Below are positions 4,347-56,287 of a stretch of DNA of 64,000 nt, piece by piece. The notes beneath the pieces are model-generated. The model made no database searches. It saw nothing but the letters and a program-made list of their open reading frames with translations, and was not told the DNA's origin. A program made the translations under genes and the position numbers. The stretch lies in the IMG/VR virus record IMGVR_UViG_3300035698_029580. One strand, 5' to 3'. Within the stretch, counting starts at the first letter, position 1; each line of letters opens with the position of its first letter. The stretch comes from a virus. Its lineage: Duplodnaviria > Caudoviricetes.

Positions 4347-5159
4347 ATGAAAAGTGATTTACTTGATTTATGGAAAAAATATAAGGAATTAAATGATGTA
4401 GAACAGAAGAACCAATTGATAGAATATTATTTTCCGTTAGTACAAAAAATTTCATATAAGGTAGCTAAGAGAATTGGTTGGAAATTACAGCCGGAGGAAT
4501 TAGCATCTTATGGAGTCGATGGACTATATTCAGCAATAGAAAAATTTGATTTAGATAGAGAGATCAAATTTGAGACATATGCTGGTGGAAGAATTTGGGG
4601 GGCAATGATAGATGAATTACGACGACAGGATCAGGTTCCAAGAACGGTTAGAATTAATACAACAAAATTTTTAAATAAAAAACATGAATTAGAATCTGCA
4701 CAAGGTATATCTGTTTCTGATGATGAAGTAGCGGAGGCAATAGGATTAGATATTAAAGAATTTAATCTGTCTAATCGTAAATATAAAGCCGTAACTTTTT
4801 CTAGTTTAAATGCTGCTATTGCTAATGATGAAGAAATAAAAGAGTCTCTAAATATAAATATGATAGACGAGAAAGCTTGTCAGCCAGAAGGACATCTTCT
4901 TAGACGAGAATTTTTAAGTAAATTGGTTGGTAAAGATTTTACCAAACTTGAGAAAAAAATTATTTATTATTATTTTTATAAAAAATATACCATGGAAAAT
5001 ATAGCTCAAGTTGTTGGTCTTTCTGAATCTAGAATAAGCCAGGTATATAAAGATATTACAGAAAGATTACGAGATAAAATAAGAAGAAATCCAAATTATT
5101 TTGACGAAGATATTTATAAAGTAATTTCATTATGTTCCATAAGAGAACCAATAATTTAG
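4347..5159 (+). CDS. sigma-70 family group 3 factor, FliA/WhiG-like
   Basis: Region 2 (GLYSAIEKFD..KFETYA..RIWGAMIDELRRQD) and region 4 HTH (TMENIAQVVGLSESRISQ). Confidence 0.9.
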   Translation: MKSDLLDLWKKYKELNDVEQKNQLIEYYFPLVQKISYKVAKRIGWKLQPEELASYGVDGLYSAIEKFDLDREIKFETYAGGRIWGAMIDELRRQDQVPRTVRINTTKFLNKKHELESAQGISVSDDEVAEAIGLDIKEFNLSNRKYKAVTFSSLNAAIANDEEIKESLNINMIDEKACQPEGHLLRREFLSKLVGKDFTKLEKKIIYYYFYKKYTMENIAQVVGLSESRISQVYKDITERLRDKIRRNPNYFDEDIYKVISLCSIREPII

Positions 5160-11161: not shown

Positions 11162-11204
11162 AATTATAAGGATTTTTTTATTTTTTATCGAATATATAGT
11201 ATAT

Positions 11205-20843: not shown

Positions 20844-20915
20844 AATAATACAATATATCTGGCTTGAAAAACGTTACTCAATATGTATTCCTATATTGTT
20901 TAAAGGAGAAAAAGA

Positions 20916-21338
20916 ATGAAAAAATTTGTAAAATTACTAGGAATTGCCTTGTTATCAACATTGATGACTTCTTCTGTTTCTGCTGAAAGGCCACAAAGAG
21001 GTACAAGAAGGCATTATATAATGCAGAGAGGTAGAGGATTAGGCAGAGGCAGAGGCAGAGTTTTAAGTGTTGGTAGAGGTATAAATAGAAATACTGGTCC
21101 TTGTCAGAATAATGGTCCTGGGTATGGGCACGGGCAACGCAGAGGTAGAGGATTAGGAAGAGGTAGGGAATTGGGATTGGAATTAAGTAGAAGCAGGAGA
21201 TTAGGATTAGGACTAGGATATGGTAGAGGTAGAGGACTAGGATATGGTAGAGGTAGAGGGCTAGGATATGGTAGAGGTAGAGGGCTAGGATATGGTAGAG
21301 GATATGGTAGAGGATTAGGATTAGGTAGAGAAAAATGA
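20916..21338 (+). CDS. secreted Gly/Arg-rich repeat protein
   Basis: AAGGAG RBS; signal peptide ending VSA; GRGRGLGY repeats. Confidence 0.65.
   Translation: MKKFVKLLGIALLSTLMTSSVSAERPQRGTRRHYIMQRGRGLGRGRGRVLSVGRGINRNTGPCQNNGPGYGHGQRRGRGLGRGRELGLELSRSRRLGLGLGYGRGRGLGYGRGRGLGYGRGRGLGYGRGYGRGLGLGREK
21217..21320 (+). repeat. 24-bp tandem coding repeat (GGATATGGTAGAGGTAGAGGRCTA)
   Basis: Three full copies plus partial copies, encoding GYGRGRGL. Confidence 0.85.
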
Positions 21339-21703
21339 GAAAATTAATAGGAATTAGTTTATTATTGGTTTTAATGGTATTTTCTTTTGGGTGTAAACAG
21401 GCTGAAGGAAATAGATATACATATAGAAGAATAAGATATGCCCCATACAGGGGCATGAGATATATGTCATATAGAATAACAAGAGGAAGAGGAAGAGGAA
21501 GAATAATAACAAGAGGAAGAGCAATAAGGGAAAGAAGAATAAGACAGATAATAAAACAAAGAAGACCACAAATAATAGAACAAAAAAATAGACCAAGAAA
21601 TAGACGTATAATAGAGAGAAGAGAACAGAGAAACATTCAAAGAGAACAGAGAAATACTCAAAGAGAACAGAAAAATAGAGGTAGAGGTCGTCGAAATAGA
21701 TAG
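21335..21703 (+). CDS. Arg-rich putative lipoprotein
   Basis: Hydrophobic signal ending FSFG-C; poly-Arg body; QREQRN repeats. Confidence 0.6.
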   Translation: MRKLIGISLLLVLMVFSFGCKQAEGNRYTYRRIRYAPYRGMRYMSYRITRGRGRGRIITRGRAIRERRIRQIIKQRRPQIIEQKNRPRNRRIIERREQRNIQREQRNTQREQKNRGRGRRNR

Positions 21704-21826
21704 CAATTTTAAAAAAATTAACATTCCACAATCAATTTAACAGTTCAAGTGTCTCATCATTTTTTCTTGTCATGTCGATATTTCTTTAGACATGAACAAA
21801 TTGCAACTAATTAAAGGAGATTTTTT

Positions 21827-22198
21827 ATGCAATTCACTGTTGGAGAGTTATACGCAATGCAACAAATTATTTACAAATTAACTATGAAGGAAATGCCTAT
21901 TAGAACAGCATACAAACTTAGTAAGTTTGTAAAAAAAATGGGTGACGATTTACGCACTTTTGATGAGCAAAGAAAAAAATTAGTAGAAAAACATGGAGAA
22001 GAATATGTAGACAAAAATAATCAAAAACAAATTAAGGTTAAACAAGAAAATATGGAAGCATTCAGAAAAGAAATAGCTGAAGTCGCTGAGTTAGAGGTAG
22101 AGATAGATATAGAACCTATAAAAATTTCCGAGTTAGGTGCTGATATCCAGGTATCTCCTGGAGATCTTGCTTTACTGGACAAAATTATCAAGGAATAA
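21827..22198 (+). CDS. DUF1617-like phage protein
   Basis: AAGGAG RBS; AYKL..., L.EK.G, EVEI.I..I, DL..L..II pattern. Confidence 0.5.
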   Translation: MQFTVGELYAMQQIIYKLTMKEMPIRTAYKLSKFVKKMGDDLRTFDEQRKKLVEKHGEEYVDKNNQKQIKVKQENMEAFRKEIAEVAELEVEIDIEPIKISELGADIQVSPGDLALLDKIIKE

Positions 22199-22200
22199 AA

Positions 22201-22689
22201 ATGAAAACAGAAGTTATGGCATTAAATACTACAGGCAAAACACTTATAGTTGTTACTGACAATAATTACACAACTACTATTAATCCTGATAGTTTTGTGG
22301 ATATTAATGTGGAAGGTTTGAAGGGTTCAAGTAAAATTAAATATATGCTCGAAAAAGGATGGCTTAAAATAGTAGAAAGGGAAGAAGAACCAGAAAAAGG
22401 TGAACTTGGATTGGAAGAACTACATGAAGCATATGGTAAAGAATCTTTTGAAGAGCAAATAGAAAATCTATATTTTCCTGAAGAAGATGAAAATGAAGAT
22501 TTTACAAACGAAAACGATTGGGAAAAAGTACGAGACATTATAAAAAATGAAGTAGAAAATGGTTTGTCTTCATTAAAATTGCAAATAAATAAACAAGAAG
22601 ACCAAATTGATCTTATGCAAAATCAGGTAGAGGCTTTAACAAGTTATATAAGCTGTCTGAGAAAATTCCATCGCTCGTTTTGGAGATGA
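22201..22689 (+). CDS. hypothetical protein
   Basis: N-terminal domain similar to the 17281 repeats; C-terminal coiled coil. Confidence 0.6.
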   Translation: MKTEVMALNTTGKTLIVVTDNNYTTTINPDSFVDINVEGLKGSSKIKYMLEKGWLKIVEREEEPEKGELGLEELHEAYGKESFEEQIENLYFPEEDENEDFTNENDWEKVRDIIKNEVENGLSSLKLQINKQEDQIDLMQNQVEALTSYISCLRKFHRSFWR

Positions 22690-22917
22690 ATCAGACGTTG
22701 AATCAACCGAAGGTTGATAATTTTATAGATATTTCTTTAAAAAGTTAATATATTTTTTAATAAAAAAAGAAGGATAATTAGTTTTATTCTTTAATATATA
22801 ATTATAAGATACTTAAACTGTACACCAAAATATTTAAAAATACATTAAAGAGTAAATATCTTCTTCTTTTAGTACAGTTTAAGAATTAGGTTTTACTCTT
22901 TTTTTATGAGAATTTAA

Positions 22918-24258
22918 GTGTTAATTCATAAAAGTTTTAAATTTAGACTTTATCCTACTAAAAAACAAGAGTCTCAACTCTTACAACAAGCAGGTAACAC
23001 CAGATTTCTCTGGAATAAACTGTTAGAGTCCAATCTTGAAACTTACAAAAATACTAAAAAATTCCAGTTTTCTTATGAAATGATTATGAGCATTCCTAAG
23101 ATGAAAGAAAAGTTTGAGTTTCTCAAACTTTCTTTTAGTCAATCTCTTCAACAAGTAGGAAGACATTTAGATAAATCTATTAAAAACTCGTTTGCCCCCA
23201 AAATCATTAAAGAAAGAAATAAAAAGATAGTTGAAGATAAAACTCCTAAAGAAAAAATGAAGGCTTATGAGTATGGAAGACCTAAGTTTAAAAAGAAAAA
23301 ACAATTTGACTCTTTTACAATTCCTCAGACGTTCAGTATTCATAGTAAGTTTGTAAAACTACCTAAAATAGGTAAAGTCAAATGGATTAAACATAGAAAA
23401 ATACAAGGAAATCCTAAATTCATAACTGTTTCAAGAGATGGAAATCAATGGTATTGCTCTGTTACTTCTGAAGTTAAAATACTTGATAAACAATATTCTC
23501 AGAGTACTGAGAATATTGTAGGAATAGATGTAGGTTTAAAAGAGTTTGCTACTCTTTCAAACAATATTGTAATTCATAATCCTAGACACTTAAATAAGAA
23601 GTTAAAGAAACTTGTAAGAGAACAAAGATGGTTAAGTAGGAAGGTTAAAGACAGTAATAATAGAAAGAAACAAATAGAAAAAGTTCAAACAATTTATAGA
23701 AAAGTAAGAAATGATAGAAAAGATTTTCTTCATAAAACTAGTTCTGATATGATAGTCAAGTATTCAGGAGTAGTTTTAGAAGATTTGAGTGTTTCAGGTA
23801 TGATGAAGAATAAAAAATTAGCTAGACATATTTCTGATGTAGGTTGGTACGAGTTTGGTAGAATGTTAGAGTATAAATCTTTATGGAACTCAAAACATTT
23901 CATAAAGGTTGACAAATGGTATGCAAGTAGTAAAATCTGTAATAAATGTGGTAATAAGAAAATAGATTTAACTTTAAAGGATAGAGTTTATATTTGTGAG
24001 AATTGTGGAAATGTGGTAGACAGAGATTTTAATGCAAGTGTAAATATTAGAGATGAGGGTATTAAAATGTTAAAAGAAAATATAAAAACTACCGTAGGGC
24101 ATACGGGAAGTAACGCCTGTGGAGATGATAAGGTTCATGTTCTCCCCAAAGGGGAGATTCAGGTGGTCGTCAAGGAAACAGGAAAAGTTCTAACCAGTTC
24201 AATAGGTCAGAAGCCCCAAGGCTTGCCTTGGGGAGTGTCACCAGTCTATTCAAATTAA
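22918..24258 (+). CDS. tnpB: IS200/IS605-family RNA-guided endonuclease TnpB
   Basis: HTH_OrfB (FKFRLYPT), RuvC GIDVG / LEDL / DRDFNAS and zinc ribbon CNKC..CENC; no tnpA nearby. Confidence 0.93.
   Translation: MLIHKSFKFRLYPTKKQESQLLQQAGNTRFLWNKLLESNLETYKNTKKFQFSYEMIMSIPKMKEKFEFLKLSFSQSLQQVGRHLDKSIKNSFAPKIIKERNKKIVEDKTPKEKMKAYEYGRPKFKKKKQFDSFTIPQTFSIHSKFVKLPKIGKVKWIKHRKIQGNPKFITVSRDGNQWYCSVTSEVKILDKQYSQSTENIVGIDVGLKEFATLSNNIVIHNPRHLNKKLKKLVREQRWLSRKVKDSNNRKKQIEKVQTIYRKVRNDRKDFLHKTSSDMIVKYSGVVLEDLSVSGMMKNKKLARHISDVGWYEFGRMLEYKSLWNSKHFIKVDKWYASSKICNKCGNKKIDLTLKDRVYICENCGNVVDRDFNASVNIRDEGIKMLKENIKTTVGHTGSNACGDDKVHVLPKGEIQVVVKETGKVLTSSIGQKPQGLPWGVSPVYSN
24090..24241 (+). ncRNA. putative omegaRNA scaffold / right end of tnpB element 1
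   Basis: Overlaps the tnpB 3' end; terminal hairpin CCCCAAGG..CCTTGGGG then GTGTCAC; the 5' boundary is approximate. Confidence 0.65.
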
Positions 24259-24441
24259 ATGTCAAAATAGGAAACCTTCCCTTTTTGTGGGCGAAAAGAA
24301 AAATTTGAAAAGTTTGATAAGATTAACTATTTATTATCTCAGGTCATGAACGAATTAAAGGAATTATGTTAAAAATTAAACAATGTAAGTAATAAGAGGA
24401 TTTTTATTAAAAAATTCAAAATAAATAATGTGTTTATTGGT

Positions 24442-24473
24442 GTCGCACCACGTAGGGGTGCGTGGATTGAAAT
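24442..24473 (+). CRISPR. solitary type I-C-like CRISPR repeat (no array)
   Basis: GTCGCACCACGTAGGGGTGCGTGGATTGAAAT: 32 nt, CGCACC/GGTGCG stem, TGGATTGAAAT end; no second copy seen. Confidence 0.85.
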
Positions 24474-24475
24474 AA

Positions 24476-26125
24476 TTGAATTTTAGTATAAAAAATAAAT
24501 TAGCACAGGAGCAGATAAATACTGATGACATAAATAATAAAGTTGAAGAAGAGACGTATGATACTCCTGTAATTGATGAAAATAACCTTAATGATTATTT
24601 GGCTGATAATTTTGAAGAAGATGAAAAACAAGTTATAGTTCCAGAAGATCAAGTAGATACTATCGAAGTAGAAAGCCCAGAAGTAGTTGCTCCAGATGAG
24701 AATTTACCGGAATTTGGAAATAATTTTGAGGCTATGAAGTGGGCTCAAGATAATCAAAAAGTTGTAAGAATTAATTACATAACGAAAAAAGGTATTGATC
24801 TATCAAGATTAGTAGAGGTTCATGGTATTATTTCTGCTAATACTGGTAATACCATAGTTGTTACATTTGATAGAACAATAGGTGAAATACGAGCATTTAT
24901 AATCGATAATATTGTAAATTATGCAATATTAGAACAAGATTTTATACCAAAATTTAAAGTGCAATCCAGAAAAAGGATAATGGCTATGAAAACAAACTCT
25001 CTTTTACAATTAAAAACAATTGGTGATGAATTAGACTCCCTTAAATTATATAAGGGGGCTGCTGTTGTTACTGGAATGATGGAGGATATATTTAATTATA
25101 AACAAGCTCAATATGAGGGATTTCAAGGACATTGGATAAGAAATAGTCGTTGTTTTGGCAATTGTTATCGTCAAAAAAGAGCCACTAAGAAAGAAATGCC
25201 AGCCCAAGAAGTTTGGATGGAATGTCAAAAAGAATATGAAGTTGCTTTAAGTGGAGATACTGAAAGTTGGGATAAATATGCTGGTAAAGATAAATTTATG
25301 ACCAAAACAGCAAGTAAAAATTCTCAGGAATTATTTAAAAAAGAACAAAAGGTATTTAACTCCCTTTTAAATAGAAAGATAAAAAGTGGTATGGCTTTTG
25401 AAAATGCTGTTTTTGCTTCTATTGAAGAAGGAAAAAATAGATATAACGATATGTTATTAGATGATACAACAGCATTGATGAGTATGGCTAAGAAATTGAA
25501 AGAAAATGGACATTCTGAATTATCTCAGAAATGTGCAGAAGCTTCGGCTCAGATAATAAAAGAAGCTCAATTTTGGCAAGGAGTAGGAGATGTTGCCAGG
25601 GGAATAGGAAGAGATATTGGAAATAAGGCTAAGGATATGTGGGGTAGAGGGCAGCAGACAGTAGATAGATATAAGCAACAAGGAGATGAACGTAGAGAAA
25701 TGGCATTAGCTAATAAAATTATAAATGATTTAAAACAACACCATCAACAATCAGATGTTATAAAAAATAATTATAGAAATTTAAGAAATGGAGTTGTAAG
25801 CTACTTGCAACAGCAATTGCCAGTCTTACGCCAAACTAGTAATCCTATTTCCAACAGAATTTCTATGGAAATAGAACGAAATTTACCAACAATATTACAA
25901 AATGGTTCTGTAAAGAATTTAATTCCTGCACTAGAAGCAATTTTGAATGGCACAAATCAACCTGTCCAAACTCAACAAGGGGCAAATCAACCACCCGTAG
26001 ATTTACAAAATACTTCATTTGATACCAATCAATCTCAGGGAGTTTCAAATACTTCATATGCCAATCCTTCTGCCAATGTCCAAATGAATAGACCGAGGAA
26101 GGTTTTGGAAAATACTGTATCTTAA
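24476..26125 (+). CDS. head-module protein with a WYL-like domain
   Basis: VRINYITKKG...RLVEVH...DRTIGEIRAFIIDNI is WYL-like; several KxA sites; TTG start directly after the CRISPR repeat. Confidence 0.6.
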   Translation: MNFSIKNKLAQEQINTDDINNKVEEETYDTPVIDENNLNDYLADNFEEDEKQVIVPEDQVDTIEVESPEVVAPDENLPEFGNNFEAMKWAQDNQKVVRINYITKKGIDLSRLVEVHGIISANTGNTIVVTFDRTIGEIRAFIIDNIVNYAILEQDFIPKFKVQSRKRIMAMKTNSLLQLKTIGDELDSLKLYKGAAVVTGMMEDIFNYKQAQYEGFQGHWIRNSRCFGNCYRQKRATKKEMPAQEVWMECQKEYEVALSGDTESWDKYAGKDKFMTKTASKNSQELFKKEQKVFNSLLNRKIKSGMAFENAVFASIEEGKNRYNDMLLDDTTALMSMAKKLKENGHSELSQKCAEASAQIIKEAQFWQGVGDVARGIGRDIGNKAKDMWGRGQQTVDRYKQQGDERREMALANKIINDLKQHHQQSDVIKNNYRNLRNGVVSYLQQQLPVLRQTSNPISNRISMEIERNLPTILQNGSVKNLIPALEAILNGTNQPVQTQQGANQPPVDLQNTSFDTNQSQGVSNTSYANPSANVQMNRPRKVLENTVS

Positions 26126-29858: not shown

Positions 29859-32800
29859 ATGGCAAAAATGATATTATCAGACAAGTCTCCTAAAAACAAT
29901 AGAAGAAAAGTAGCTTCCAGTGGGGGATATACAGTTCCCACTAAAAATGATCAAAATTATGCTGGAGCACAAACCGCCAATATGCCAATCACAAAATCGG
30001 CACAGTTCACGGGCTCTTCTGCTAATGTAGTATTTACACAACCTATGTTCTTTAGCCCAATGCATACTCCTCAAAACTGGCAAATTGCTAGTAAACGAAG
30101 AGAGGTAATGCAATGGGCTCGTTTTTATTATGAAAATGAACCTACAATTGCTGCTGGTGTAGATTTTTACTCGGAATTTTCCATGAATGGTTTCAAATTA
30201 GAGTGTAAGAGTAAAAAAATACTTAAATATTTTGAACGTGTAGTTGACAGAATTGCTTTACCTACTTGGTTAGATTTTATAAGTCATGAATATTTTCTTC
30301 TTGGAGATGTTTTTCCGTTTGCTGAAATAGATTGTCCTGTCTGCCACGGAACAGGTCAGCTACAAACTCCCGAAGGTATGGAAACATGTAATCATCCTGA
30401 TGGAACAATTAAATCAATTAAAATAATGAACCCTGACTATATAGAAGTACAAGATAATGTACTTGCTGATGAACCAGTTATAGCTCTTATTCCTGATGAA
30501 GAATTAAAAATGATAGTTATGAGGCAACAGCCTCAACATATTTATAATAATTTGCCCATGAGATTAATTGATCTTATTTCAGGTGGGCGTCCTATTCCTC
30601 TTTCAAATAGAAGTGTCAGTCATATAAAATATAATGCTAGTCCTTATGGGACTTATGGTACTTCACTTCTTCGTCGATGTTTCACTCCTCTTGCATATAA
30701 AACTAAGATAATGACGGCAAATTGGATTATTGCCGAAAGACTCATATTACCTATTAGAGTTGTAAAAATAGGAGAAGAAAAGCGTCCTGCTTCAGAAGCA
30801 GATATTGCAGATGTAGTAGATCAAATGGCAGCAGTTGCTAATGATCCGAATCTAACAATTGTTACTCATCATGCTTTTGACCTCGAGTGGTTCGGGGCAG
30901 CGGGCAAGATACATAATATAACTCCTGAATTAGAACATATTGATAAAGAATTATTAAATGGATTAATGTTAAACCAAGCTATTTTGAACGGTGAGGCAGC
31001 AGGATATAATTCGGCACAGGTTGGTATTGAAGTTCTTATTAGAAGATTAGAAAACTGGAGAAACAAATTAAAAGAATGGGTTGAAAAACATATATTCTTA
31101 CCTATATCTATGATGCAAGGATTTATAGATGAAGAAGAGTCAAAATCATCTGGAGAAACAGTATATCTTTATGCAAAACTTGAATTTAACGATCTGAATC
31201 TTAGAGACAATAGCAATAGAATACAAATTTTAATGCAATGTTATGATAAACAACTGGTATCTGCTCAAACAATTTTAGAAGAATTAGATTTAGATTATGA
31301 TTCTGAAGTAAGAAAATTAAGAGAAGAACAAATGATGGTATCTGCCGCTGGTATGATGATGCCTCAAGGAGGAGATATGGGTGGCATGGGAGGATTAGGA
31401 GGAGACATGGGAGGTATGGGTGGTGGTATGGGTGGTGGTATGGGGGGACTTGAGGGCATGGGTGGAGAGATGCCTATGGGTGGAGAAATGGGAATGCCAG
31501 GAGAAGCAGGTATGGGTGGAGGTATGGCCGGAGCCGAAATGGGTGGTGGAGCAGCAGCATCTAGTAATTTATCCATGATAACTAAAAGGGGAAAAAGCAA
31601 ACAAGATGATGACCAATCTCAGGGGCCAATTTTTAAACCAGTTCGTCTTACTGGATTAGAACAAAAAGTACTTAAGGTACTTCGTGGTTTTAATGTTCCT
31701 TACAAATTGTTTGGTCAATATCAAGTAAAGGTTGCTGGAGAACAGAGACCATTTGTTTTAGATTTTGCTTATCCTGAAATAGGTGCGGGAATTGAATGTT
31801 TACATCCTGAGACATATGTTCCAACAACCAATGGAATAAAAATGGCTAAATCTATAGATGAAGGGGAGTATTTAATAGGAAGAAAGGGAGAACCAGTAAA
31901 AGTAATAAGAAAATTTATCAATCAATCTAATGATAAATTATTAAATATAAAAGCAATGGGACTAAACAATTTTAAAGTAACTAAAAATCATCCATTTTTA
32001 ATTTCTAAACCAAAAAGAGTTAGGGTTAGAAGAAATGAACCGAGCAGGATAAAAACAAGAACAAGAGAGTATTTTGTTCCTGATATTCCTAAATTTGTTT
32101 CAGCTTTTAATTTAAAAAATGGAGATTATTTTGTTATTCCTAAAAACAGACAGATATCTAATTCTTATAATATAAAAGAAACTTTAAATTTGTCTTCTTA
32201 TAATGGAAAATCTCATAATTCACATAAACTTCCAGAAAAAATTAAAATGAATAAAGATTTTGGATGGTTAATGGGGATTTACGCTGCTGAAGGATCCTCA
32301 AGTGGGGAAAAAAGCAAAACAGTTGAATTTTCATTTCATATAGATGAAGTTGAATATAGTGATAAAGTACAATGTTTATTAAACAAAATATTTAATTTGT
32401 CTTCTTCTGTTCAGGTATATTTTGAAAATAATTGTAGAAAAGTTGTTTGTTGTAGTACGTCTTTAGGCAGATTTTTATTAGATTCTTTTGGACACAAGGC
32501 TCCAAATAAAAAACTGCCTTCGTGGATGTTTGAGGTTTCCGTAGACTGTAAAGAAGAATTTATGAAAGCATTTTGTCAAGGGGATGGTTGTATTAGACCT
32601 GAAAATGGCATTAATCGCTATATCTCATCGTCACAGAAGTTGCTATTAGATTTACAAGCACTATCTTTTTCTATTGGAAAATTTGCTACAGTTATGTCTT
32701 CCAGAAAAGGTAACAGACTTGCTTGTTTTCCAAGTGGTAAAGAATATAGGATAAAATCATTATGGGAAATGGACATGAATCCTAATATTTGTAGAAAACA

Positions 32801-33263
32801 ACAATATAGAGAAGATGATGATTATTTTTATGTACCAATTAAATCAATAATTGAAGAAAATTATGATGGAAAAGTAATAAATTTTGAGACAAAAGGAGAA
32901 GGAGAAAATGATCATACTTATTTAGTCCACAATGTGGTAACACACAATTGTGACGGAGCTATATGGCACGAGCAAGAGGGTCGTGCAACTAAAGACCAAC
33001 AAAGAGATCAAAAATTAGCAAATGTTGGATGGAGAATTTTAAGATTTAAAGAAGATGCTATTACTGATCATTTACAATCAGTTAGAGATATTATTTATCA
33101 AAATATATTAGAAGCAGGCAAACAAAAAAAGAAAGCAGAGGAAAATAACAGTATACAGAAATATGCTAGTTTATTAAATTCATCTTTAAAAGATACTAAT
33201 ATAAAAATTAGTATTTCTGATATGCCTAATAACTTGGGTCAAATTTGGTTGGTGGGTTACTAA
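29859..33263 (+). CDS. portal protein fused to an intein-split DUF559/Vsr-like nuclease domain
   Basis: Portal-like N-terminal region (RFYYENEP.I..GVDFY.EF, YGTSLLRR) between terL and the protease; Gly/Met linker; LDFAYP..GIE|CDG.IWH...DQQRD..L...GWRILRF. Confidence 0.75.
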   Translation: MAKMILSDKSPKNNRRKVASSGGYTVPTKNDQNYAGAQTANMPITKSAQFTGSSANVVFTQPMFFSPMHTPQNWQIASKRREVMQWARFYYENEPTIAAGVDFYSEFSMNGFKLECKSKKILKYFERVVDRIALPTWLDFISHEYFLLGDVFPFAEIDCPVCHGTGQLQTPEGMETCNHPDGTIKSIKIMNPDYIEVQDNVLADEPVIALIPDEELKMIVMRQQPQHIYNNLPMRLIDLISGGRPIPLSNRSVSHIKYNASPYGTYGTSLLRRCFTPLAYKTKIMTANWIIAERLILPIRVVKIGEEKRPASEADIADVVDQMAAVANDPNLTIVTHHAFDLEWFGAAGKIHNITPELEHIDKELLNGLMLNQAILNGEAAGYNSAQVGIEVLIRRLENWRNKLKEWVEKHIFLPISMMQGFIDEEESKSSGETVYLYAKLEFNDLNLRDNSNRIQILMQCYDKQLVSAQTILEELDLDYDSEVRKLREEQMMVSAAGMMMPQGGDMGGMGGLGGDMGGMGGGMGGGMGGLEGMGGEMPMGGEMGMPGEAGMGGGMAGAEMGGGAAASSNLSMITKRGKSKQDDDQSQGPIFKPVRLTGLEQKVLKVLRGFNVPYKLFGQYQVKVAGEQRPFVLDFAYPEIGAGIECLHPETYVPTTNGIKMAKSIDEGEYLIGRKGEPVKVIRKFINQSNDKLLNIKAMGLNNFKVTKNHPFLISKPKRVRVRRNEPSRIKTRTREYFVPDIPKFVSAFNLKNGDYFVIPKNRQISNSYNIKETLNLSSYNGKSHNSHKLPEKIKMNKDFGWLMGIYAAEGSSSGEKSKTVEFSFHIDEVEYSDKVQCLLNKIFNLSSSVQVYFENNCRKVVCCSTSLGRFLLDSFGHKAPNKKLPSWMFEVSVDCKEEFMKAFCQGDGCIRPENGINRYISSSQKLLLDLQALSFSIGKFATVMSSRKGNRLACFPSGKEYRIKSLWEMDMNPNICRKQQYREDDDYFYVPIKSIIEENYDGKVINFETKGEGENDHTYLVHNVVTHNCDGAIWHEQEGRATKDQQRDQKLANVGWRILRFKEDAITDHLQSVRDIIYQNILEAGKQKKKAEENNSIQKYASLLNSSLKDTNIKISISDMPNNLGQIWLVGY
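31797..32948 (+). mobile_element. intein with LAGLIDADG homing endonuclease (384 aa)
   Basis: Begins CLHPET, block B VTKNHPF, EN motifs MGIYAAEG and FCQGDG, ends THN before a +1 Cys. Confidence 0.92.
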
Positions 33264-54939: not shown

Positions 54940-56287
54940 GTCAATTACCTTCCCTATAAAGGGGAAGACTTGTAATTATCCAACTAGGTTAGACACTACA
55001 ATAGGCTGATTGACCACAGCCCTACTTAGGTAAGATATACTATCCAAGTATTTTGAGATTATATTACGAGAAGCATTTAAATCAGCATTGAGAGTAAAAT
55101 TACAATGTTTACATTTAAAAACAGATTGAGAAGAACGATTGGATTTTTTGATATGACCACATTTACTACATCTTTGGCTAGTGTATCTAGCATCAATATT
55201 TTCTACAAGAATTCCTTTAGAAGCAGCTTTATACCTAATAAACTGTTCCAATTGATAAAAATTCCATTTGTGAACCTGTTTTCGTTCTTTTTTCCTAAAA
55301 TTGCATCTGTTTCTGATACCTGTCAGATCTTCCAACAGGATTGTAGTTCCCTTCTCAATAGTATTTACAATCTGTTTAGAAATACAATGATTAATATCTG
55401 CTCTGAAGCGGTTCTCCTTTTTAGAAATCTTTTTAAGGTGTCTTTTGGCAGATTTTGTGTTAACAGATTGAAGTCTACTTCTCAGTTGTTCATATTTATT
55501 AGAAATTTGTTTAATCCTAGAACCTCCAAAAAATCTATTGTCAGAACAAACAGCAATTTTTTTAATTCCTCTATCAATTCCAAGATATTTTTTATTAGGA
55601 GTTGGGTCTTCTACTTCTTTTTTAAAGGAGATATGAATAAATACTTCGTTTTTAGCAATAAAAAGTTCAGCAGATTGTCTTTTCCAGGTGATGTATTGTT
55701 GGAAATATTTAGGGATAGATATGTTAAATTTTTGTCTACCGTCGAGAGTTTGAATAGAAATTTTGTTTTTATTAAACCAAGTAGTAAAAGTTTTATCGTT
55801 ATACCTAATAGAACAATTTTTAGATTGAGGACATCTAGGTATTTTTAATAATTTTTTAGGTTTATTAGAATGAGTTTGATTATATTTAGTGCGTTTGTTA
55901 TTTTCTATTTTTGTATTCTTTTTAAGTGTTCTCCAAGATTTAAGAGATTCAGTGGCCTTTACTCTGGCAGAGATGGCCAGATCAGCAGAAAGATATTTTC
56001 TAGTGGTTTTATAAGTTTTATGATGCAGGGATACTCCGTTGAAATCTTTAGAATCATAACCTGTTTGACAAACAAAGTTGTAAGCTTTAGTATATGCTTG
56101 AATGGTTGGTTCAAACATAGATTTAGGTTTATTAAGTTTAAGTTTTATAGTTCTTATAAGTTCCATATATACTATATATCGAATAATATAAGAAAAACCT
56201 TTAATAAAATTAAAAATATTTTTAAGAAAGGAGAAAAGGCAATTTTTCCTCTATCACAAGAATAGAGGTTCCCTTGCCTTTAATTTA
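54940..56287 (-). mobile_element. non-autonomous IS200/IS605 (tnpB-only) element
   Basis: Left-end hairpin 56237-56280; right-end hairpin ending TTGAC at 54940; removing it restores MLEI^MESKYS. Confidence 0.7.
54976..56166 (-). CDS. tnpB: RNA-guided endonuclease TnpB
   Basis: RTIKLKL, GIDRG, LEDL, YTSQRCSKC..CKHC and NADLNAS motifs. Confidence 0.92.
   Translation of the reverse strand: MELIRTIKLKLNKPKSMFEPTIQAYTKAYNFVCQTGYDSKDFNGVSLHHKTYKTTRKYLSADLAISARVKATESLKSWRTLKKNTKIENNKRTKYNQTHSNKPKKLLKIPRCPQSKNCSIRYNDKTFTTWFNKNKISIQTLDGRQKFNISIPKYFQQYITWKRQSAELFIAKNEVFIHISFKKEVEDPTPNKKYLGIDRGIKKIAVCSDNRFFGGSRIKQISNKYEQLRSRLQSVNTKSAKRHLKKISKKENRFRADINHCISKQIVNTIEKGTTILLEDLTGIRNRCNFRKKERKQVHKWNFYQLEQFIRYKAASKGILVENIDARYTSQRCSKCGHIKKSNRSSQSVFKCKHCNFTLNADLNASRNIISKYLDSISYLSRAVVNQPIVVSNLVG

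What the first reader, a model, noticed from the sequence alone, without database searches (positions are those of the whole stretch)
24390..24510. Solitary type I-C CRISPR repeat fused to the 5' end of a WYL-domain head gene
Seen: a GC-rich 32-mer GTCGCACCACGTAGGGGTGCGTGGATTGAAAT in very AT-rich DNA, with no second repeat and no cas genes in the window. It lies about 45 nt after a phage promoter-like motif, 2 nt before the TTG of ORF 24476 (its GGA could be the only SD) and 200 bp after a tnpB right end. Known: Cas5c cuts I-C repeats after G21, leaving an 11-nt handle (here UGGAUUGAAAU), and phage solitary repeat units can act as RNA anti-CRISPRs (Racrs). Inference: either a Racr-like decoy built into a highly expressed late mRNA, or a Cas-sensing switch in which host Cas5c processing controls translation of the WYL protein.
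Basis: partly seen in the sequence, partly recalled or inferred. Interest (0 to 1): 0.85.

Follow-up and report, generated by a model that had tools for sequence, protein, structure and literature searches.

The report
CRISPR repeat replacing a phage leader
A jumbo phage has swapped the roughly 13-base leader of one conserved gene for a captured copy of a bacterial CRISPR repeat, which now supplies that gene's ribosome-binding site and may soak up the host's CRISPR proteins; close relatives lack it and nothing yet shows that it does anything.

Summary
The repeat is real (24442-24473) and single in the window. It is 30/32 identical to a type I-C array repeat lying beside cas5c (Peptococcaceae UBA5318). 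One change (C9>A) breaks the top stem pair, so the RNA is predicted to split about evenly between the cleavable fold and one that buries the cut site. Three sibling alleles (one about 82% identical in DNA) and 122 homologous loci lack it. In siblings a family-conserved promoter runs through a short GGA-bearing leader to the same TTG. Here that leader is replaced by 12-15 foreign bases plus the repeat, whose handle GGA sits in nearly the same register. The gene is intact, WYL-fold and under purifying selection. The tnpB is an unrelated insertion in the upstream gene. Use as a guide against siblings is unsupported (PAM slot AAT/AAC, not TTC). Best reading: a recent, lineage-specific capture that is transcribed and acts as a Racr-like Cas5c/Cascade sink (0.45); neutral passenger 0.33; sensing switch 0.12. 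Host, expression and the assembly junction could not be tested. Viral solitary repeats are common, and this scan noted leader-embedded repeats in other phages.

The parts
24442..24473 (+). Solitary type I-C CRISPR repeat (32 nt); predicted Cas5c cut between 24462 (G21) and 24463
   Evidence: 30/32 to the array consensus of L014/G001, whose cas5c lies about 5 kb upstream on the same strand; cut site from PMC8524198
24463..24473 (+). 11-nt 5' handle; its GGA (24464-24466) is the only SD-like motif, 9 nt before the TTG
   Evidence: siblings have GGA 7 nt (L018) and 8 nt (L136) before the same TTG
24427..24441 (+). 12-15 nt that do not align to siblings and probably arrived with the repeat; source unknown
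   Evidence: alignments; no resemblance to the I-C leader ends available
24393..24429 (+). Family-conserved promoter-like motif P2 (AGGATT 24397-24402, -10-like 24417-24422); predicted +1 about 24428-24430
   Evidence: motif 18-34 nt (mode 27) before the ATG in 54 of 86 homologous starts; profile rank 10 of 127,926 window positions; promoter function inferred
24355..24391 (+). Second, tandem promoter-like motif P1, overlapping the end of the interrupted upstream gene; also present in siblings
   Evidence: rank 9 of 127,926; conserved in L018, L135, L136
24428..24475 (+). 15-codon uORF, in frame with the gene, reading through the repeat; its stop abuts the TTG
   Evidence: translation not shown
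24476..26125 (+). 549-aa gene: acidic N-terminus, WYL-fold domain (about residues 71-165), second domain with its own SD and ATG; intact and conserved
   Evidence: dN/dS 0.16 (WYL) and 0.19 (second domain) against L018
24973..24988 (+). Internal SD (AAGGA) and ATGs 24980/24986 opening the second domain, which is a separate gene in other relatives
   Evidence: P0023-P0039 align only from residue about 170-215 onward, except P0037
22648..24241 (+). IS605-type tnpB element inserted after TTAT into gene 22201; context only, independent of the repeat
   Evidence: absent in L018; the empty site restores S-Y-Q-S-I against sibling S-Y-K-S-I; TnpB family
24242..24372 (+). Orphaned, frameshifted C-terminal part of gene 22201: native phage DNA between the IS end and the promoter, not a CRISPR leader
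   Evidence: aligns to sibling coding sequence

Best explanation
After this lineage split from its siblings, a host type I-C repeat with 12-15 flanking bases replaced the short 5' leader of a conserved WYL-domain gene, between the predicted transcription start and the TTG. SHOWN: identity of the repeat, absence in relatives, position between promoter motif and TTG, the handle's GGA in nearly the register of the native GGA, intact gene. INFERRED: (1) the repeat is transcribed from the phage-sigma promoter as the first about 45 nt of the mRNA that leads into the head/portal cluster; (2) host Cas5c cuts the molecules in the canonical fold after G21, leaving an mRNA that starts with the 11-nt handle and has a 13-nt leader, the ancestral length; (3) Cas5c stays on the handle and Cas7/Cas8c assemble on the first codons, which makes a Cascade with no PAM-flanked target and drains Cas proteins from host crRNAs (Racr-like); (4) loaded molecules cannot start the WYL half, while the second domain is still made from its own SD. 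The capture was probably helped by microhomology between the native leader (GGA..AAAT) and the handle.
For: 30/32 to a cas5c-linked array repeat. U22-G23-G24 and the stem base, the Cas5c determinants, are intact (PMC8524198). Sense orientation behind a top-ranking family promoter motif. The insertion sits in the 13-nt slot that spares both promoter and gene. A single repeat plus downstream sequence is enough to load a type I-C Cascade (PMC10865793). A I-C solitary repeat within an mRNA inhibits I-C immunity (RacrIC1, PMC10651486), and 83% of proviral SRUs whose hosts have CRISPR-Cas match the host subtype.
Against: Absent from three sibling alleles, 122 homologous loci and 28 related virus records, so there is no evidence of selection. 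C9>A breaks the top stem pair and creates a rival hairpin that buries G21: canonical fold about 40-70% in context against 99.98% for the C9 parent. The promoter heads structural-module genes, so it is probably late, which is poor timing for a decoy (inference). Host and its CRISPR type are unknown. No acr-like neighbour was recognised; the flanking genes are conserved across the family.
Confidence: 0.45

Rival explanations
1. Neutral passenger. A host repeat fragment was captured by microhomology repair and tolerated because its GGA replaced the native SD and an in-frame ATG preceded it; it is now starting to decay.
For: Single occurrence, absent in all relatives. The native leader already resembles the handle, which offers a route without selection. 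The only stem change is destabilising. This genome tolerates neighbouring insertions (IS element, and 20844-21752). Shmakov et al. consider many SRUs in cas loci spurious (10.1101/2023.03.03.530964).
Against: The whole 32-mer is kept, at most 2 changes from a known array repeat, in sense orientation exactly behind a promoter, while the nearby orphaned gene fragment has already frameshifted. The relative ages of the two events are unknown.
Confidence: 0.33
2. Cas-responsive translation switch. Cas5c binding or cutting changes initiation at the TTG (by blocking the SD, by removing the uORF coupling, or by freeing the SD), so WYL protein levels report host I-C status.
For: The handle carries the SD; the uORF stop abuts the TTG; the two folds are nearly isoenergetic. 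CRISPR cut sites placed upstream of an RBS alter translation context in engineered systems (Csy4; PMC8601185). The WYL fold is a nucleic-acid-sensing fold.
Against: Predicted unpaired probability over the SD-to-start stretch changes only from 0.44 to 0.49 on cutting. The leader's long-range pairing is no better than shuffles (23% fold as well). The gene and promoter are conserved in a whole family without any repeat, so the protein has no evident link to CRISPR. The second domain has its own start.
Confidence: 0.12
3. One-spacer guide. The 34 nt after the repeat direct host Cascade against repeat-free sibling phages or against a host promoter (Cracr/crlRNA-like).
For: Repeat-spacer units work in type I-C. 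Such uses are described (PMC6858448; 10.1101/2024.10.29.618823), and earlier scan notes proposed them for other phages.
Against: The PAM slot in sibling alleles is AAT or AAC, not TTC/TTT, and the match is 23-24/34. No seed-perfect match with a TTC/TTT PAM exists in the window. No terminator follows. The would-be guide is simply the gene's first codons.
Confidence: 0.07
4. Assembly chimera: a host repeat was joined into the phage contig.
For: The exact 32-mer was not found in IMG/VR, JGI metagenomes or GTDB, and reads could not be examined.
Against: Both flanks are collinear with the sibling. A misjoin at a repeat would bring array sequence, not a clean 31-34 nt net gain with the SD in register. 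An independent contig matches nearby DNA (21530-22404) at 99.9%, though it does not reach the junction.
Confidence: 0.03

Closest known systems
Viral solitary repeat units / RNA anti-CRISPRs, especially RacrIC1 in the acrIC5 operon (Camara-Wilpert et al. 2023, PMC10651486)
   Same: One near-consensus I-C repeat on a phage, no partner repeat, downstream of a promoter, part of a protein-coding transcript.
   Different: RacrIC1 lies 11 nt downstream of an acr gene. Here the repeat is the 5' leader itself, supplies the SD of a conserved structural-module gene, has no recognised acr neighbour and is probably expressed late.
Type I-C CRISPR repeats processed by Cas5c (PMC8524198)
   Same: 32 nt, 2-nt 5' overhang, stem base, U22-G23-G24, 11-nt handle; 30/32 to a cas5c-linked array.
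   Different: 6 of 7 stem pairs (A9-G15 mismatch), and a competing hairpin that the array repeats examined do not form.
Cracr / crlRNA regulatory RNAs (10.1101/2024.10.29.618823; 10.1101/2023.03.03.530964)
   Same: A single repeat followed by sequence that could load into Cascade.
   Different: No terminator, and the would-be spacer is the gene's own first codons, conserved as protein in repeat-free siblings.
Virus-borne mini-arrays (Medvedeva et al. 2019, PMC6858448)
   Same: CRISPR repeat on a virus without cas genes nearby.
   Different: No second repeat, no CRISPR leader (upstream DNA is native phage), no PAM at the sibling site.
WYL-domain proteins (BrxR, PafBC, CapW, DriD)
   Same: Residues about 71-165 adopt the WYL fold (TM-score by query 0.72-0.78 for the best hits).
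   Different: No HTH or WCX domain detected; fused to a phage-specific domain, and to DUF192 in some relatives.

Membership tests
Type I-C CRISPR repeat | Near identity to repeats of arrays linked to cas5c | tested here: met
   30/32 to the consensus of 16 copies in G001; cas5c (TIGR01876) over the cut-off in all three genomes with matching arrays
Type I-C CRISPR repeat | 32 nt with an 11-nt 3' handle beginning U22-G23-G24 | tested here: met
   sequence against PMC8524198
Type I-C CRISPR repeat | Stable 7-bp stem with pentaloop, closing at G21 | tested here: inconclusive
   6 of 7 pairs; canonical -9.5 against rival -10.1 kcal/mol; canonical fold about 40-70% in context
Solitary repeat unit (SRU) | No other full or partial repeat nearby | tested here: met
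   next best 18/32 in 64 kb; only a 7/11 handle look-alike, which is the conserved promoter motif
Solitary repeat unit (SRU) | Intergenic, on a mobile element | tested here: met
   5' leader of ORF 24476 (overlapped only by a 15-codon uORF); phage with a capsid protein 54% identical to Bacillus phage G
Racr (RNA anti-CRISPR) | Expressed as RNA from a native promoter | not testable with these tools
Racr (RNA anti-CRISPR) | Bound or processed by Cas proteins, and inhibits interference | not testable with these tools
   needs biochemistry and plaque assays
Racr (RNA anti-CRISPR) | Host carries the matching CRISPR subtype | tested here: inconclusive
   host unknown; none of 69 spacers from arrays with similar repeats gives a full-length match to the window (best 17/18 nt)
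Racr (RNA anti-CRISPR) | Frequent co-location with acr genes (supporting, not required) | tested here: inconclusive
   neighbours are family-conserved genes or an IS; no acr family among the hits shown, but novel Acrs would be missed
Viral mini-array / one-spacer guide | Second repeat or terminator bounding a spacer | tested here: not met
Viral mini-array / one-spacer guide | Target flanked by the subtype PAM (TTC/TTT for I-C) | tested here: not met
   AAT and AAC in sibling alleles, 23-24/34 match; PAM from PMC10865793
Cracr / crlRNA | PAM-flanked seed match to a host cas or defence promoter | not testable with these tools
   host genome not identified
WYL domain | WYL fold | tested here: met
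   model pLDDT 90.9; best matches BrxR, PafBC, CapW; PADLOC WYL E 1e-8; Pfam E 0.0034, below the gathering score
WYL transcriptional regulator (HTH-WYL-WCX) | HTH and WCX domains | tested here: not met
   only WYL is hit in Pfam

The most novel reading that the evidence does not exclude
A phage has turned a host CRISPR repeat into the functional 5' leader of a late gene, so that host Cas5c/Cascade both is titrated by the mRNA and gates translation of a WYL nucleic-acid sensor, with the C9>A change tuning a two-state fold: a natural Cas-sensing translational switch.
Probability: 0.12. Interest if true: 0.8.

Novelty: new variant of a known kind. Interest (0 to 1): 0.42.

Why it matters
Over 2,000 viral solitary repeats are catalogued, but how they arise, and whether those inside mRNAs do anything, is open. 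Here the repeat-free sibling alleles are in hand, so the capture can be read almost base by base: the repeat took the place of a 13-nt leader, kept the start codon and substituted its own GGA. That gives a ready-made paired test (leader with and without the repeat) for decoy against switch against passenger in a standard type I-C strain, and suggests a route by which Racrs are born.

Tried and rejected
Link to tnpB or a nascent type V system: rejected; the IS ends at TCAC 24241, sits in another gene, and the DNA up to the promoter is native. Upstream DNA as a CRISPR leader: rejected; it aligns to sibling coding and promoter DNA. Degenerate second repeat: only a 7/11 handle look-alike at 24397-24407, 34 nt upstream, which is the conserved promoter motif; treated as coincidence. 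Precise 32-nt insertion: rejected; the net gain is 31 nt (L018) or 34 nt (L136) and the flanks do not match the siblings. Scar of spacer-mediated recombination: no TTC at the expected places in siblings; not supported. Long-range leader pairing: not above shuffles. Exact repeat in public collections: none. Host identification by spacers or by the sigma factor: failed. Cas6 (PF09559) in four related records: none, but the control did not ring either. Shorter homologues of the N-terminal half: none. Rfam: no hit. Nam et al. 2012 was not held; its results are cited through PMC8524198. The anti-SD sequence used was taken from memory, so those energies are rough. The search for other solitary repeats followed by a start codon selected for the start codon, so it is not an enrichment test.

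Full report
OBSERVATION. The 32-mer is at 24442-24473 (+). It occurs once with up to 3 mismatches, none expected by chance; the next best window site matches 18/32. No core cas gene was seen among 66 ORFs scanned against PADLOC. The whole genome is not held, so 'solitary' applies to this window. The phage is a jumbo phage: its capsid protein is 54% identical to that of Bacillus phage G, and it encodes a FliA/WhiG-like sigma factor. The host is unknown.

IT IS A TYPE I-C REPEAT. The exact sequence is absent from IMG/VR, JGI metagenomes and GTDB. A pattern allowing changes at three positions found arrays in three genomes. The consensus of Peptococcaceae UBA5318 (16 copies) differs at two positions, C9 and C32. 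All three genomes carry cas5c, and in UBA5318 it lies about 5 kb upstream of the array on the same strand, which fixes the orientation. A terminal T occurs in natural I-C arrays (L005). Cas5c cuts after nucleotide 21 and recognises the stem base and U22-G23-G24 (PMC8524198); these are intact. The C9>A change removes the top stem pair and creates a rival 7-bp hairpin that buries G21-G24 (-10.1 against -9.5 kcal/mol). The cleavable fold is about 40-70% for transcripts starting at 24420-24430, against 99.98% for the C9 parent. This could be decay or tuning.

RELATIVES LACK IT. An alignment-based scan gave more than 110 homologous loci. None of 122 loci (807 kb, partly redundant) has a site matching 20/32 or better. 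None of 28 related virus records, two of them complete genomes, has a I-C-type repeat. One close sibling, L018 (77-89% DNA identity by block, 82% over this gene), and two further alleles, L135 and L136, cover the site.

WHAT THE SIBLINGS SHOW. Across the family the gene is preceded by AGGATT, mostly 27 nt before a start with no SD (54 of 86 starts have the motif 18-34 nt upstream). This looks like a promoter with leaderless mRNA (inference). A profile of 48 such sites, with a TATAAT-like second box, ranks the window's site 10th and a tandem site at 24359 9th of 127,926 positions; the window's score (13.6) is lower than the siblings' (18.0 and 21.5). In the sibling clade the motif is followed by a short leader with GGA 7-8 nt before a TTG. 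L136 has no ATG there, so the TTG start is ancestral. In the window, alignment to siblings holds up to about 24426 and resumes at the TTG. The short leader has been replaced by 12-15 unalignable bases, the repeat and 2 nt, a net gain of 31-34 nt. The handle's GGA sits 9 nt before the same TTG, and the native leader already read GGA..AAAT, a plausible microhomology for the right junction (inference). A Cas5c cut would leave a 13-nt leader, the ancestral length. An ATG at 24428 opens a 15-codon uORF in frame with the gene, ending at TAA directly before the TTG, so coupled reinitiation is possible.

THE GENE. Residues about 71-165 fold as a WYL domain (pLDDT 90.9; BrxR, PafBC and CapW best). No HTH or WCX domain was detected. 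dN/dS against L018 is 0.16 for WYL and 0.19 for the second domain, so the gene is not visibly decaying; this pools both lineages. The second domain is a separate gene in other relatives and has its own SD and ATG at 24973-24988, so it does not depend on the repeat. 'Head protein' rests only on its position upstream of the portal gene.

THE tnpB IS UNRELATED. It is an IS605-type element at 22648-24241, inserted after TTAT in gene 22201 and absent from L018. The DNA between its end and the promoter is the orphaned, frameshifted tail of that gene.

MECHANISM. Shown: identity, novelty in this lineage, position, SD substitution, intact gene. Inferred: transcription, cleavage and Cascade loading. 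A single repeat plus downstream sequence loads a I-C Cascade in Neisseria lactamica (PMC10865793), and RacrIC1 inhibits I-C immunity from within an mRNA (PMC10651486). The loaded guide would be the gene's first codons. In this phage its DNA match is flanked by the repeat end, and in siblings by AAT or AAC with only 23-24/34 identity, not the TTC/TTT PAM. No seed-perfect match with such a PAM exists in the window and no terminator follows. A complex without a target is a sink, hence Racr-like (0.45). Against this stand the late-type promoter, the lack of conservation, the weakened stem and the unknown host, so a neutral passenger is close behind (0.33). For a switch, cutting shifts predicted accessibility of the SD-to-start stretch only from 0.44 to 0.49, and the leader's pairing with the coding region is matched by 23% of shuffles. 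Any control would have to come from protein occupancy of the handle (0.12).

COMPARISON AND NOVELTY. It is a member of the SRU class (2,103 known on viruses). It may work like a Racr, but membership is untested. It fails the mini-array tests and lacks the Cracr terminator. What differs from published cases I could find is that the repeat has replaced the leader and supplies the SD of a conserved gene, with the before-state available. Earlier notes of this scan report leader-embedded repeats in other phages (unchecked), and two IMG/VR loci show a solitary I-C-like repeat 1-2 nt before an ATG opening 66 and 82 codons (L187, L213; selected for, unverified as genes). So the layout may recur, but here it is a single occurrence without evidence of selection.

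VERDICT. Real feature; new variant of a known kind; interest 0.42.

Noticed in passing
window 22648-24241: IS605-type tnpB element with an apparently intact D-E-D triad interrupts gene 22201 after TTAT; its guide would be the bases from 24242 on, matching the IS-free allele.
   Followed up: yes
window 20844-21752: About 0.9 kb with two Gly/Arg-rich repetitive ORFs with signal-peptide-like N-termini (20916-21338, 21335-21703) is absent from the sibling L018.
   Followed up: partly
window 24397-24441: The promoter's AGGATT box matches the repeat handle at 7 of 11 positions and lies 34 nt before the repeat, so a transcript from the upstream promoter P1 would look like handle-spacer-hairpin. Probably coincidence, since the box is conserved in repeat-free relatives.
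   Followed up: partly
window 24423-24429 and 24470-24476: The 7-mer AAATAAT occurs on both sides of the inserted segment; possible microhomology, but siblings favour replacement of the leader.
   Followed up: partly
window 4347-5159: FliA/WhiG-like sigma factor; candidate reader of the AAGGATT promoter family (also at 11169, 18143, 33685, 35973, 41942, 47008).
   Followed up: partly
window 54976-56166 (-): A second TnpB-family gene starts 28 nt behind the same phage promoter motif, without an SD; possibly domesticated.
   Followed up: no
P0037; L100, L107, L116, L122, L125: In several relatives the WYL domain is fused behind DUF192 and the second domain is a separate gene: the modules are shuffled within the family.
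   Followed up: partly
L002 2344-2375 (+): A solitary I-C repeat in an unrelated virus is flanked by a perfect 7-bp direct repeat, like a target-site duplication.
   Followed up: no
L187 776-807 (-) and L213 6349-6380 (-): Solitary I-C-like repeats 2 nt and 1 nt before an ATG opening 66- and 82-codon ORFs; L187 has the same spacing as the window.
   Followed up: partly
L199 2669-2700 (-): A I-C-like repeat lies in the leader of a roughly 700-aa gene that has its own strong SD; a second repeat lies 227 nt away.
   Followed up: no
window 29859-33263: The portal gene carries an intein-like LAGLIDADG insert and a C-terminal DUF559 nuclease-like domain.
   Followed up: no
L159 1-875: An independent ENA contig is 99.9% identical to window 21530-22404; its sample may hold reads across the repeat.
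   Followed up: partly
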